A stretch of 64,000 nt of DNA, from the NCBI RefSeq assembly GCF_054482595.1, contig NZ_CM137008.1; one strand, given 5' to 3'. A model generated the notes under the pieces. It was not told the origin of the DNA, made no database searches, and saw only the letters and a program-made list of their open reading frames with translations. Shown piece after piece: positions 24,131-26,298 of the stretch. Both the position numbers and the translations under genes were made by a program. Position 1 is the stretch's first letter. Each line of letters begins with the position of its first letter.

Positions 24131-25003
24131 TCAGCGTCCCTTCTTTTTACGCCCCGGCGAGGTAAAACGCTTACCGTTGGACGCCGGGCGACCGCCTTTT
24201 TCCGCCGTTTTTTCCATCTTAACGACTGGACGTTTGATGCCCGCCGTTTTCGGTTTAGCCTTCGCTTTAGGTTTTGCCTCGGAAGAGGAATTTTCAATGA
24301 GCTTAAAGAGGTCGATTAACTCATCGTCGGTTAAATCGCGCCACTCCCCCAGTGGAATGCCGCTTAAGCTGACGTTCATAATGCGCGTACGTTCCAGCTT
24401 TTTCACTTCGTAACCAAAGTGCTCACACATGCGACGGATCTGACGGTTCAACCCCTGCACCAGGGTAATGCGGAAGACAAACGGTGCTTCTTTTTTGATT
24501 TTGCACTTTTTCGTCACCGTCCCGAGGATCGGCACTCCCGCCCCCATACCACGAATAAATTCATCGGTAATCGGTTTATCGACCGTTACCAAATACTCTT
24601 TTTCATGATCATTGCCAGCACGCAGGATCTTATTCACCAGATCGCCGTGATTGGTGAGGAAAATCAGCCCCTGGGAGTCTTTATCCAGGCGGCCAATCGG
24701 GAACACGCGTTTGCTGTGGTTAACGAAATCGACAATGTTATCGCGCTCGCCATCTTCGGTGGTGCTGACAATACCGACGGGCTTGTTCAGGGCGATAAGT
24801 ACCAAATCTTCGGCTTCCCGAGGCTCAATCAACTGACCGTTTACTTTCACAACGTCGCCGGGTTTCACCTGATCGCCAATGGTGGCTCGCTTGCCATTAA
24901 GGAACACATTGCCTTGCTCGATATAGCGATCCGCTTCGCGGCGTGAGCAAATTCCGCTTTCGCTGATGTATTTATTTAAACGGACTGATGAGTCGGGCAG
25001 CAT
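24131..25003 (-). CDS. rluF: 23S rRNA pseudouridine synthase F
   Basis: 290 aa; S4 domain at the N-terminus, RsuA/RluF catalytic motif ([14 protein letters not shown]), lysine-rich C-terminal tail. Confidence 0.9.
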
Positions 25004-25350
25004 AAATTCTCCTGTAAAACGCGGAATATACCGTACCTCTTAGCAGGGAAAAACAGAGTTATGCGGCAACGTCGAAATTAAATGTGATCTGCCGCGCCTT
25101 TTATCACAAAAGTGTCTCCGGAAGTACAATGCAAATTTGCGTGGCAAAATAAGGATAATCAACATATTACGAATCGCTGCACACCTGTGCTGATAACTAC
25201 TACGCAGAGAAACAAATGTGCAAGAGAAAGCGCTATTTCTCCCCATGCAAAGAGTGAAAAATCGCTTTGAAAGGCCATCATGATGGGGTTATATCAGATC
25301 AAGCGGTGAGAAAGCGTATTTGCACAAATGTGCAGAACCAGGAGGCGGCA

Positions 25351-26298
25351 ATGGAAAACAGTGACGATATCCGTTTGATTGTGAAGATTGCCCAACTCTA
25401 TTACGAACAGGATATGACGCAGGCGCAAATCGCGCGCGAACTGGGTATTTACCGCACCACCATCAGCCGCTTGCTTAAACGAGGCCGCGATCAGGGAATT
25501 GTCACCATCGCCATCAACTATGACTACAACGAAAATCTCTGGCTGGAGCAGCAACTGAAGCAAAAGTTTGGCCTGAAAGACGTTGTGGTGGTGTCGGGAA
25601 ATGATGAGGATGAAGAGACTCAACTGGCGATGATGGGGTTACACGGCGCGCAACTGCTGGATCGCTTGCTGGAGCCTGGCGATATTGTCGGTTTTTCCTG
25701 GGGTCGCGCGGTGAGCGCACTGGTTGAAAACTTGCCGCAGGCGGGGCAATCGCGGCAGTTAATCTGCGTACCAATTATTGGCGGACCGTCCGGTAAACTC
25801 GAAAGCCGCTATCACGTAAACACATTAACCTACAGCGCGGCAGCGAAGCTGAAAGGGGAATCGCATCTCGCGGATTTTCCGGCTCTACTGGATAACCCAT
25901 TAATTCGTAATGGGATCATGCAGTCTCAGCACTTTAAAACCATCTCTGCCTACTGGGATAATCTGGATGTCGCCCTGGTGGGAATTGGCTCACCGGCCAT
26001 TCGCGACGGCGCTAACTGGCATGCGTTTTATGGTGGTGAAGAGAGTGACGACCTGAATGCCCGCCAGGTTGCTGGCGATATTTGCTCGCGCTTTTTTGAT
26101 ATTCACGGCGCAATGGTTGAAACGAATATGAGCGAAAAAACACTCTCTATCGAAATGAATAAATTAAAGCAGGCGCGGTATTCCATTGGCATTGCCATGA
26201 GTGCAGAAAAATACAGCGGAATTGTTGGTGCACTGCGTGGAAAATATATTAATTGTCTGGTAACGAATAGCAGCACAGCTGAACTATTACTGAAATAA
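25351..26298 (+). CDS. sorC: Sorbose operon transcriptional regulator (SorC family)
   Basis: ATG at 25351 preceded by AGGAGG; 315 aa; N-terminal HTH (MTQAQIARELGIYRTTISRLLKRGRDQG) plus a SorC sugar-binding domain; first gene of a sorbose-type PTS operon. Confidence 0.85.
   Translation: MENSDDIRLIVKIAQLYYEQDMTQAQIARELGIYRTTISRLLKRGRDQGIVTIAINYDYNENLWLEQQLKQKFGLKDVVVVSGNDEDEETQLAMMGLHGAQLLDRLLEPGDIVGFSWGRAVSALVENLPQAGQSRQLICVPIIGGPSGKLESRYHVNTLTYSAAAKLKGESHLADFPALLDNPLIRNGIMQSQHFKTISAYWDNLDVALVGIGSPAIRDGANWHAFYGGEESDDLNARQVAGDICSRFFDIHGAMVETNMSEKTLSIEMNKLKQARYSIGIAMSAEKYSGIVGALRGKYINCLVTNSSTAELLLK

What the first reader, a model, noticed from the sequence alone, without database searches (positions are those of the whole stretch)
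25205..25340. Repeated motifs including a perfect 14-bp palindrome just upstream of sorC
TGCACAAATGTGCA (25321-25334) is a perfect palindrome ending 17 nt before the sorC start codon. Its half-site ACAAATGTGCA recurs at 25212-25222, and a second motif GAGAAAGCG(C)TATTT occurs at about 25223-25240 and 25307-25323, so the two motifs appear in permuted order, A-B then B-A. This looks like operator and promoter architecture for autoregulation by SorC.
Basis: seen in the sequence. Interest (0 to 1): 0.3.

Follow-up and report, generated by a model that had tools for sequence, protein, structure and literature searches.

The report
Predicted SorC operator sites before sorC

Summary
The window is E. 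coli with the sorCDFBAME island beside rluF. The reported sequences are at the stated coordinates. However, TGCACAAATGTGCA is not a perfect palindrome: it has 6-bp arms around a non-symmetric AA.

As a 16-mer the site is TTGCACA-AA-TGTGCAg.
- It occurs at O3 (25320-25335).
- It occurs as a right-arm half-site at O2 (25208-25223).

In 26 sor loci from about 10 enterobacterial genera these sites keep fixed spacing (31 and 112 bp) while the flanks diverge. The core GCAC-N4-GTGC occurs nowhere else in 182 kb of those loci.

Firmicute SorC-like regulators share the recognition helix LGIYRTTISR and carry the same palindrome upstream, although they sit next to unrelated genes. The experimentally defined B. 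subtilis DeoR operator has the same 7+2+7 geometry, and its half-site differs by one base.

So these are very probably SorC operators flanking a conserved weak promoter (-10 at 25290-25295). O3 lies in the leader; O1 and O2 lie upstream.

The second motif, GAGAAAGCG..TATTT, is not conserved and is at chance level.

No published SorC operator was found. This is a new member of a known kind, of modest interest.

The parts
25320..25335 (.). O3: TTGCACA-AA-TGTGCAg, the proximal SorC-type operator.
   Evidence: It is invariant in 26 enterobacterial sor loci at -30/-31 from the start codon, with majority identity 0.99. It lies about +19 to +34 from the predicted transcription start, directly before the Shine-Dalgarno sequence.
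25208..25223 (.). O2: agaaACA-AA-TGTGCAA, a half-operator with a perfect right arm and a degenerate left arm.
   Evidence: CAAATGTGCAA is conserved at a fixed position 112 bp from O3 in 25 of 26 loci, and 113 bp in Serratia. The right arm plus centre has identity 0.97. In Kluyvera the site is a full palindrome, TTGCACAAACGTGCAA.
25177..25192 (.).
   Evidence: Seen. The core GCAC-N4-GTGC is present at -173/-174 in 24 of 26 loci, 31 bp upstream of O2; the other two (L004, L013) carry a one-base variant at the same position. The centre and outer bases vary without compensation, as expected for a protein site rather than a stem.
25102..25117 (.). O0: taTCACA-AA-AGTGtct, a weak SorC-like palindrome (core CACAAAAGTG). 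Its status is uncertain.
   Evidence: ACACAAAAGTGT is conserved across genera. It lacks the G of GCAC that is invariant in O1-O3, and it has 6 mismatches to the 16-mer.
25267..25272 (+). Predicted -35 hexamer, TTGAAA.
   Evidence: TTG is conserved. TTGnnn-17-TATATC is the only promoter-like pair that recurs at the same alignment position; it is among the top 3 hits in 22 of 28 sequences. This is a prediction only.
25290..25295 (+). Predicted weak -10 hexamer, TATATC, inside the invariant block GGTTATATCAGATCA (25287-25301). The predicted transcription start is near 25302.
   Evidence: The block has majority identity 0.97. The transcription start is inferred from the -10 position and has not been measured.
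25254..25266 (+). A-rich stretch GTGAAAAATCGCT just upstream of the -35 (about -48 to -36), resembling a proximal UP element. It is also an inverted B-like copy (AAAGCGATTTTTC on the minus strand).
   Evidence: Conserved as GAAAAT(T/A)GCTTTG across genera. Inverted-repeat pairs I2 and I3 appear. The function is inferred.
25224..25238 (+). It is not supported as a functional element.
   Evidence: Majority identity is 0.65, which is background. It varies among E. coli and Pseudocitrobacter alleles. A 9-mer repeat is expected in 27% of random sequences.
25308..25321 (+). It is not supported as a functional element; only the ATTT flank of O3 is conserved.
   Evidence: Majority identity is 0.71. 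E. coli E69 has TTAAAAAGCGTATTT at this position.
25340..25345 (+). Shine-Dalgarno sequence AGGAGG of sorC.
   Evidence: Read from the sequence. It lies 5 nt before the ATG at 25351.
25351..26298 (+). sorC, a 315-aa SorC-family regulator and first gene of sorCDFBAME (operon to 31064).
   Evidence: E 1e-182 to PDB 2W48. It has an HTH plus Sugar-bind domain. RefSeq annotation is, and orthologous operon genes are.
25080..25101 (.). CRP-like site AAATGTGATCTGCCGCGCCTTT. The left half matches the CRP consensus 11 of 11; the right half is weak.
   Evidence: TGTGATC is invariant in 26 loci, and other genera have better right halves, such as TGTGATCCGTCACACCTTT. Which promoter it serves is unknown.

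Best explanation
The palindrome-type motif marks binding sites for SorC, the regulator encoded by the next gene. The site is a 16-bp inverted repeat, TTGCACA-AA-TGTGCAA. Each 7-bp arm would be read by one helix-turn-helix of a SorC dimer.

The E. coli sor control region carries three such sites at fixed spacing.
- O1 (25177-25192) is a palindrome.
- O2 (25208-25223) has only its outer, right arm intact. It lies 31 bp from O1.
- O3 (25320-25335) is near-perfect. It lies 112 bp from O2.

A conserved weak promoter (TTGAAA-17-TATATC, transcription start near 25302) lies between O2 and O3.

The inferred mechanism is as follows.
- Without sorbose, tetrameric SorC (a dimer of dimers) occupies O3 in the transcribed leader and bridges to O1/O2. 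This encloses the promoter in a loop of about 112-143 bp and represses sorC and the whole operon, giving autoregulation.
- With inducer, the contacts between dimers loosen. O3 is freed, and SorC left at O1/O2 (about -87 and -118) helps RNA polymerase at the weak promoter. This would account for SorC being both repressor and activator.

What is shown: the existence, specificity, conservation and fixed spacing of the sites; their co-occurrence with the SorC recognition helix; and their likeness to the DeoR operator.

What is inferred: binding by SorC, the promoter and transcription-start position, looping, and activation from O1/O2.

The GAGAAAGCG..TATTT repeat is not part of the mechanism.
For: 1. 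Conservation. O3 is invariant. The O2 right arm and the O1 core GCAC/GTGC are invariant or nearly so, at -30/-31, -142/-143 and -173/-174, in 26 sor loci. The genera are Escherichia, Pseudocitrobacter, Citrobacter, Klebsiella, Raoultella, Mangrovibacter, Serratia, Pantoea, Cedecea, Entomohabitans and Enterobacter. Intervening DNA drops to 0.45-0.67 majority identity.

2. Specificity. GCAC-N4-GTGC occurs only at these positions in 182 kb of those loci. It occurs only here in the 64-kb window: 4 strand-matches against 0.69 expected.

3. The motif follows the protein rather than the operon. Three Firmicute regulators that are 43-48% identical to SorC have an identical helix, LGIYRTTISR. They carry TTGCACAATTGTGC plus a right-arm half-site 19-20 bp downstream in their upstream regions. 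Yet their neighbouring genes are RpiA-like and GFO/IDH/MocA genes, not a sorbose PTS.

4. A homologous regulator with a solved DNA complex. B. subtilis DeoR has a DNA-binding domain 48% identical to SorC's (PMC11229326), with E 1e-8 and both base-contacting arginines aligned. It binds TTGAACA-AA-ATTTCAA plus aTTTACA-TA-TGTTCAA. This is the same 7+2+7 geometry, the half-site differs by one base, and the outer arms are strong while the inner arms are weak, as in O1+O2 (operator sequence quoted).

5. Phase. Kluyvera has lost 11 bp, one helical turn, between O2 and the -35. This changes O2-O3 from 112 to 101 bp.

6. Protein state. SorC is tetrameric in the crystal and is described as both repressor and activator of sor (PMC2943609; PMC12817954).

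7. Promoter. TTGnnn-17-TATATC is the only positionally conserved promoter-like pair.
Against: - No binding experiment exists for SorC on this DNA. I could not read Wöhrl et al. 1990 or de Sanctis et al. 2009, which may map the promoter or discuss repeats.
- The transcription start is only predicted. The -10 (TATATC) is poor, and its 15-bp invariance is more than a -10 requires.
- The O1-O2 spacing (31 bp) does not match the roughly two turns between DNA-binding-domain pairs inferred from the SorC crystal. It also does not match the 19-22 bp seen in DeoR and in the Firmicute homologues.
- O2-O3 at 112 bp is 10.7 turns at 10.5 bp per turn. It is in phase only if the in vivo repeat is about 11.1.
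- A conserved CRP-like site and other conserved blocks further upstream (25080-25169) do not fit the simple model and hint at a second promoter.
Confidence: 0.78

Rival explanations
1. One reading: two different motifs, A (the palindrome) and B (GAGAAAGCG..TATTT), in permuted order form a composite operator/promoter, with B as a second functional recognition element.
For: Both B copies exist and abut A copies. A third, inverted B-like copy (GAAAAATCGCTTT, 25256-25268) overlaps the conserved region upstream of the -35 (pairs I2 and I3).
Against: B1 and B3 are at background conservation across genera (0.65 and 0.71). They differ among E. coli and Pseudocitrobacter alleles: GATAAAGCGCC and TTAAAAAGCG. 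Repeats this good arise in 13-27% of random sequences. Only the inverted copy next to the -35 is conserved, and it is better explained as an A-tract/UP-like element plus the -35.
Confidence: 0.08
2. The palindromes are bound by a different host transcription factor, a global or sugar regulator of Enterobacteriaceae, rather than by SorC.
For: No SorC binding data exist. Conserved CRP-like and other blocks show that other factors probably act in this region.
Against: The same motif appears upstream of SorC-like genes in Bacillales, which share the recognition helix but not the host factors or the target genes. The half-site is one base away from that of the homologous DeoR DNA-binding domain. 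In my recollection the motif matches no E. coli consensus (CRP, Cra, GalR, PurR, FNR). That comparison was made by eye, not with a motif database.
Confidence: 0.05
3. O3 acts as an RNA hairpin in the sorC 5' leader, affecting translation or stability, and the upstream copies are incidental.
For: The leader can form a 7-bp hairpin with an AAAU loop (centroid -7.9 kcal/mol) 4-5 nt before the Shine-Dalgarno sequence. In most genera the 3' arm abuts the Shine-Dalgarno sequence: TGTGCAGGAG.
Against: The fold is not better than shuffles (z -0.99). There is no Rfam match. The loop and flanks are as invariant as the stem, so there is no covariation. The same motif is conserved at O1 and O2, upstream of the predicted promoter. 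There the inner pair is often broken without compensation, as in GCACAAAGGTGC. The hairpin does not sequester the Shine-Dalgarno sequence.
Confidence: 0.04
4. The repeats are a chance or purely historical feature, such as a small duplication, with no function.
For: On single-sequence statistics alone the case is only moderate: an 11-mer repeat has p about 0.024 and a 6+2+6 palindrome p about 0.084.
Against: The sites are invariant and at fixed spacing across about 10 genera while neighbouring DNA diverges. They also recur in another phylum.
Confidence: 0.02

Closest known systems
Bacillus subtilis DeoR operator of dra-nupC-pdp (SorC/DeoR subfamily; crystal structure of DeoR with OL18, PMC11229326)
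   Same: - The DNA-binding domain is a homologous HTH, 48% identical to SorC's. The RxT(V/I)SRLL helix keeps both base-contacting arginines.
- The site geometry is the same, 7+2+7 with an A-rich centre.
- The half-site TTGAACA differs from TTGCACA by one base.
- The composite operator pairs a palindrome with a partner whose outer arm is perfect and whose inner arm is degenerate, as in O1+O2.
- The protein is a tetramer, a dimer of dimers.
   Different: - DeoR's two half-operators are 22 bp apart and overlap the -35 (-60 to -21). In sor, O1-O2 are 31 bp apart and lie well upstream.
- The sor region has a third, best site in the leader, 112 bp away.
- DeoR is a pure repressor encoded upstream of its operon. 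SorC is both repressor and activator and is the first gene of its own operon.
- SorC binding has not been shown.
Bacillus subtilis CggR operator of gapA (SorC/CggR subfamily)
   Same: - The regulator is the first gene of the operon it controls, so it is autoregulated.
- The operator lies in the transcribed leader (+32 to +77), as O3 does here (about +19 to +34).
- A tetramer binds two half-operators cooperatively, and the inducer breaks the dimer-dimer bridge (PMC2943609). That paper suggested the same cooperativity model for SorC.
   Different: - CggR has a winged-helix DNA-binding domain and direct-repeat GGGAC-type sites, so the motif is unrelated.
- It has a single contiguous 45-bp operator, with no upstream sites and no activation.
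Promoter-flanking operator pairs that loop DNA: GalR OE/OI, LacI O1/O3, AraC O2/I1 (from established knowledge, not tested here)
   Same: - Palindromic operators lie on both sides of the promoter, roughly 90-210 bp apart. In gal the two are about 114 bp apart, against 112 bp for O2-O3 here.
- A CRP site lies nearby.
- In ara, one protein both represses by looping and activates from the upstream site.
   Different: - The protein families are different.
- Looping at sor is only inferred, from the spacing, the 11-bp Kluyvera deletion and the tetrameric state of SorC.
E. coli LsrR (SorC family) at the lsrR-lsrA intergenic region
   Same: - It belongs to the same family and the same HTH subfamily (E 3e-7 for the DNA-binding domain).
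- It is tetrameric and has two binding boxes in a divergent control region (as cited in PMC11229326).
   Different: - The recognition helix is different (LTRLKVSRLL).
- I could not retrieve its site sequence, so no motif comparison was made.

Membership tests
Operator of a SorC/DeoR-subfamily regulator | Lies in the control region of a gene or operon associated with a SorC-family protein that has the short HTH DNA-binding domain. | tested here: met
   sorC starts 16 nt after the 14-mer. The protein has Sugar-bind plus HTH domains and gives E 1e-182 to SorC 2W48. Its DNA-binding domain aligns to DeoR and LsrR.
Operator of a SorC/DeoR-subfamily regulator | Inverted repeat of two roughly 7-bp arms around a 2-bp centre, with a half-site resembling TTGAACA (the DeoR OL site seen in the crystal). 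| tested here: met
   O3 is TTGCACA-AA-TGTGCAg. The DeoR OL site is TTGAACA-AA-ATTTCAA (sequence quoted). The geometry is the same and the half-site differs by one base.
Operator of a SorC/DeoR-subfamily regulator | Two half-operators about two helical turns apart (20-22 bp), so that one tetramer covers both. | tested here: not met
   The enterobacterial spacings are 31, 112 and 143 bp, and no site lies 19-22 bp from O1, O2 or O3. The feature is met in the Firmicute homologues, at 19-20 bp. The sor arrangement is therefore a spacing variant.
Operator of a SorC/DeoR-subfamily regulator | Direct, inducer-sensitive binding by the cognate regulator. | not testable with these tools
   This needs EMSA or footprinting. 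PMC2943609 (2010) states that operators were known only for DeoR and CggR. The 2025 E. coli sor paper does not mention a promoter or operator.
Operator of a SorC/DeoR-subfamily regulator | The motif co-varies with the regulator's recognition helix across taxa. | tested here: met
   The helix LGIYRTTISR is identical in E. coli, Klebsiella, Kluyvera and three Bacillales homologues, and all carry TTGCACA-type palindromes upstream. DeoR has a different helix and a different half-site.
Sigma-70 promoter (for the element between O2 and O3) | -35 and -10 hexamers with 16-18 bp spacing, conserved in position, and a mapped transcription start. | tested here: inconclusive
   TTGAAA-17-TATATC matches 9 of 12 positions but lacks the conserved T at the last position of the -10. 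It ranks among the top 3 at the same alignment column in 22 of 28 sequences. The generic scan did not list it and instead found a non-conserved TTATCA-18-TACAAT. No transcription-start data were available.
Structured RNA leader or terminator | A stable fold beyond background, covariation, a U-tract or an Rfam match. | tested here: not met
   The z-score is -0.99. No terminator-like site was found. There is no Rfam hit. There are no compensatory changes.
CRP site (25080-25101, outside the finding) | A 22-bp site TGTGA-N6-TCACA, positioned at -41.5, -61.5, -71.5 and so on from a transcription start. | tested here: inconclusive
   The left half matches 11 of 11. The right half matches 2 of 5 in E. 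coli and 3 of 5 in other genera. Its centre lies about -211 from the predicted transcription start, so its positional class is unresolved.

The most novel reading that the evidence does not exclude
SorC, the founding member of its family, may not use the contiguous two-turn tandem operator proposed from its crystal structure and seen for DeoR and CggR. It may instead use a three-site, phase-locked switch.

The switch would have two parts.
- A stretched composite operator, O1+O2, 31 bp apart. This is one helical turn more than in the Firmicute relatives.
- A lone high-affinity site, O3, in the leader 112 bp away.

A tetramer would loop out the promoter to repress. When the loop opens, SorC would activate from the upstream sites. 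This resembles the AraC/GalR logic, built here from a SorC-family protein, possibly with CRP bending the DNA upstream.
Probability: 0.3. Interest if true: 0.5.

Novelty: new member of a known kind. Interest (0 to 1): 0.3.

Why it matters
SorC gave its name to a large family of sugar-responsive regulators. According to the literature I could search, operators have been defined only for DeoR, CggR and LsrR, not for SorC itself.

The comparison yields three things.
- A concrete 16-bp consensus.
- Three exact sites to mutate.
- A testable explanation for SorC acting as both repressor and activator.

It also gives a natural one-base specificity pair: TTGCACA with helix YRTTISR, against TTGAACA with helix SRPTVSR. 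This could be used to study DNA recognition in the family.

The sor operon is enriched in high-risk E. coli lineages and affects their fitness (PMC12817954), so its control region has some applied interest.

None of this is surprising. It is the expected kind of cis-element for a known autoregulated operon.

Tried and rejected
- **Motif B as an operator.** Rejected. It is not conserved and is at chance level.
- **Perfect palindrome.** Rejected by reading the reverse complement.
- **The generic promoter hit TTATCA-18-TACAAT at 25101-25130.** TACAAT is specific to this allele and is not conserved, so it is not taken as the sor promoter.
- **A promoter using O3's TTTGCA as -35 and AAAGAT at the start codon.** Rejected. 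It is absent in E. coli. In other genera it is explained by the A-rich spacer between the Shine-Dalgarno sequence and the ATG.
- **Sigma-54, FNR and IHF readings of the invariant block and of O3.** By eye, these are poor matches.
- **RNA readings.** Rfam at a permissive threshold gave only a meaningless snoRNA hit. The RNA fold was not significant.
- **Partner half-sites 19-22 bp from O1, O2 or O3.** None were found (and by eye).
- **Internal operator sites elsewhere in the sor operon or in the 64-kb window.** None were found.
- **Literature.** Wöhrl 1990 and de Sanctis 2009 are not held. The LsrR structure paper is not held, and the LsrR site search was unproductive. No paper in the library links SorC to a defined operator.
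- **Distant SorC homologues (25-33% identity, Chloroflexi and Clostridia).** No obvious TTGCACA palindrome appeared in the three I inspected. They were not analysed further.

Full report
**Context**

The window matches E. coli chromosomes. The query 24950-25450 is found whole in 2863 of 5426 complete genomes. In the others only its first 89 bases match, so an island begins near 25038. RefSeq annotation of an identical strain shows rluF on the minus strand (window 24131-25003). It is followed on the plus strand by a sugar-binding regulator, an SDR oxidoreductase, mannose-class PTS IIA/IIB/IIC/IID and sorE, and then pepE. The regulator (25351-26298) gives E 1e-182 to K. pneumoniae SorC, PDB 2W48, and has HTH plus Sugar-bind domains.

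**Observation**

There are three corrections.
- TGCACAAATGTGCA is not a perfect palindrome. Its reverse complement is TGCACATTTGTGCA, so it is 6-bp arms around a non-symmetric AA.
- A third copy, TGCACACCTGTGCT (25178-25191), was missed.
- Framed as 16-mers against TTGCACA-NN-TGTGCAA, the sites are as follows.

| Site | Coordinates | Match to the 16-mer |
|---|---|---|
| O3 | 25320-25335 | 1 mismatch |
| O1 | 25177-25192 | 3 mismatches |
| O2 | 25208-25223 | right arm and centre only |
| O0 (weak) | 25102-25117 | 6 mismatches |

**Chance**

In random sequences of the same length and composition:
- an exact 9-mer repeat, as in motif B, appears in 27% of sequences;
- an 11-mer repeat appears in 2.4%;
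- a 6+2+6 palindrome appears in 8.4%;
- the 11-mer repeat and the palindrome together appear in 0.2%.

A gapped repeat as good as B appears in 13% of shuffles. In the whole 64-kb window, the only two matches to the 14-mer with at most 1 mismatch are both in this region. GCACANNNGTGC is found only there, with 4 strand-matches against 0.69 expected.

**Conservation**

A scan of one genome per species with the SorC protein returned 27 enterobacterial loci.

Position and spacing:
- In 26 sor loci (the window plus 25 fetched loci, Kluyvera excluded), the 14-mer sits at -30/-31 from the start codon. It is identical in 25; Serratia has AGCACAAATGTGCA.
- CAAATGTGCAA sits at -142/-143.
- GCAC-N4-GTGC sits at -173/-174.
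- The spacings are therefore 31 and 112 bp, with 113 bp in Serratia.

Majority identity among 13 clade representatives:

| Region | Majority identity |
|---|---|
| O3 | 0.99 |
| O2 right arm | 0.97 |
| O1 (GCAC/GTGC columns invariant) | 0.83 |
| B1 | 0.65 |
| B3 | 0.71 |
| Unconstrained stretches | 0.45-0.67 |

- Even among E. coli and Pseudocitrobacter alleles, B reads GATAAAGCGCC and TTAAAAAGCG.
- GCAC-N4-GTGC occurs nowhere else in the 182 kb of these loci.
- In O1 the central and outer bases change without compensation (for example GCACAAAGGTGC). This fits a protein site rather than a stem.

**Link to the protein**

Three Bacillales regulators are 43-48% identical to SorC (L027-L029). They sit beside RpiA-like and GFO/IDH/MocA genes, not a sorbose PTS. 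Their upstream regions nevertheless carry TTGCACAATTGTGC(T) or TTGCACAATTGTAC, plus a second site 19-20 bp downstream. That second site has an intact right arm in L028 (TGTGCAA) and a one-mismatch arm in L027 and L029 (TGTGCTA, CGTGCAA). Their recognition helix, LGIYRTTISR, is identical to that of E. coli SorC.

B. subtilis DeoR has a DNA-binding domain 48% identical to SorC's and aligns at E 1e-8 with both base-contacting arginines in place. Its operator is ATTGAACAAAATTTCAATTACCAATTTACATATGTTCAA. Parsed in the same frame, this is TTGAACA-AA-ATTTCAA followed by aTTTACA-TA-TGTTCAA, 22 bp apart. The geometry is identical, the half-site differs by one base, and the outer arms are perfect while the inner arms are degenerate, exactly the pattern of O1+O2. 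Taken together this makes SorC the binding protein with high probability, although no experiment shows it.

**Promoter**

The only promoter-like pair that recurs at one alignment position is TTGnnn-17-TATATC, with the -10 at 25290-25295. It ranks in the top 3 in 22 of 28 sequences. It lies inside an invariant block, GGTTATATCAGATCA, and is preceded by a conserved A-tract.

With a transcription start near 25302, the site positions would be as follows.

| Site | Position relative to predicted start |
|---|---|
| O3 | about +19 to +34, just before the Shine-Dalgarno sequence |
| O2 | centre about -86.5 |
| O1 | centre about -117.5 |

The generic scan's hit at 25101-25130 is not conserved.

In Kluyvera, a sorC-like gene (70% identity) followed by a shikimate-dehydrogenase-like gene occupies the same rluF-pepE slot. 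The upstream site there is a full palindrome. An 11-bp deletion between it and the -35 shortens the operator distance to 101 bp. One helical turn is lost and the phase is kept.

**Mechanism (inference)**

SorC is a tetramer in the crystal and is described as repressor without sorbose and activator with it. The layout has a best site in the leader and a composite site upstream, flanking a weak promoter at fixed, phase-preserving distances. This suggests repression by a tetramer bridging O3 to O1/O2, or at minimum a roadblock at O3. It further suggests activation from O1/O2 once the inducer loosens the bridge, in line with the cooperativity model proposed for the family.

Several points argue against a simple transfer of the DeoR/CggR model.
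- O1-O2 are 31 bp apart, not about 21 bp.
- 112 bp is 10.7 turns at 10.5 bp per turn.
- There is unexplained conserved DNA upstream.

**Alternatives**

An RNA hairpin at O3 can form (-7.9 kcal/mol). It is no better than shuffles (z -0.99), it has no Rfam match, and it cannot explain O1 and O2. A host factor other than SorC is unlikely given the Firmicute data.

**Literature**

No paper in the searchable library gives a SorC operator. A 2010 paper says operators were known only for DeoR and CggR. A 2025 study of the E. coli sor operon does not mention a promoter or operator. The two primary SorC papers could not be read.

**Verdict**

- This is a new member of a known kind, of modest interest.

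Noticed in passing
window 25080-25101: AAATGTGATCTGCCGCGCCTTT has a left half that matches the CRP consensus 11 of 11. TGTGATC is invariant in 26 enterobacterial sor loci, and other genera have better right halves. Its centre lies about 211 bp upstream of the predicted sor transcription start. It may therefore serve a second sor promoter or the divergent rluF gene. The late, stationary-phase induction reported in PMC12817954 would fit catabolite control.
   Followed up: partly
window 25102-25117: TATCACAAAAGTGTCT (core ACACAAAAGTGT in other genera) is a conserved palindrome with the same CACA-AA-xGTG core as the SorC sites, but it lacks the invariant G. It could be a weak fourth SorC site or the site of another factor. 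It lies 75 bp from O1.
   Followed up: partly
window 25130-25169: There are further conserved blocks with no assigned role: TGCAAATTTGC (containing the perfect 10-bp palindrome GCAAATTTGC), GATAATCAA (CAGAATCAA in other genera) and ATTA. A second promoter with a -10 near 25154-25168 is possible but is not conserved as such.
   Followed up: partly
window 25287-25301: GGTTATATCAGATCA is invariant in 26 loci, which is more constraint than a weak -10 needs. On the minus strand it reads TGATATAAC, which resembles an extended -10, so a divergent or bidirectional promoter is conceivable. It contains a GATC, as does the invariant TGTGATC upstream.
   Followed up: no
window 25084-25350 against loci L002-L031: The whole sor control region of about 270 bp aligns across about 10 genera almost without indels, only single-base gaps, despite heavy substitution between the conserved blocks. 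This suggests that spacing is constrained throughout.
   Followed up: partly
L023 and L024 (Kluyvera), about 2900-4760: The rluF-pepE slot holds a sorC-like gene (70% identity) followed by a shikimate-dehydrogenase-like gene and no sorbose PTS. It still has two near-perfect TTGCACA palindromes 101 bp apart. PMC12817954 reports a shikimate-dehydrogenase-like sdhL next to the sor operon in E. coli ST648, which may be the same module.
   Followed up: partly
L027, L028, L029 (Bacillales), -180 to -20 from the regulator start: SorC-like regulators with the same recognition helix and the same operator motif sit next to RpiA-like and GFO/IDH/MocA oxidoreductase genes. This may be an uncharacterised sugar or polyol pathway under a SorC-type switch. 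In L027 the sites overlap a TGnTATAAT promoter.
   Followed up: partly
window about 25038 (island junction) and rluF 24131-25003: The sor island starts only about 35 nt upstream of the rluF start codon. The DNA that must hold the rluF promoter therefore differs between sor+ E. coli (2863 of 5426 genomes) and sor- E. coli.
   Followed up: no
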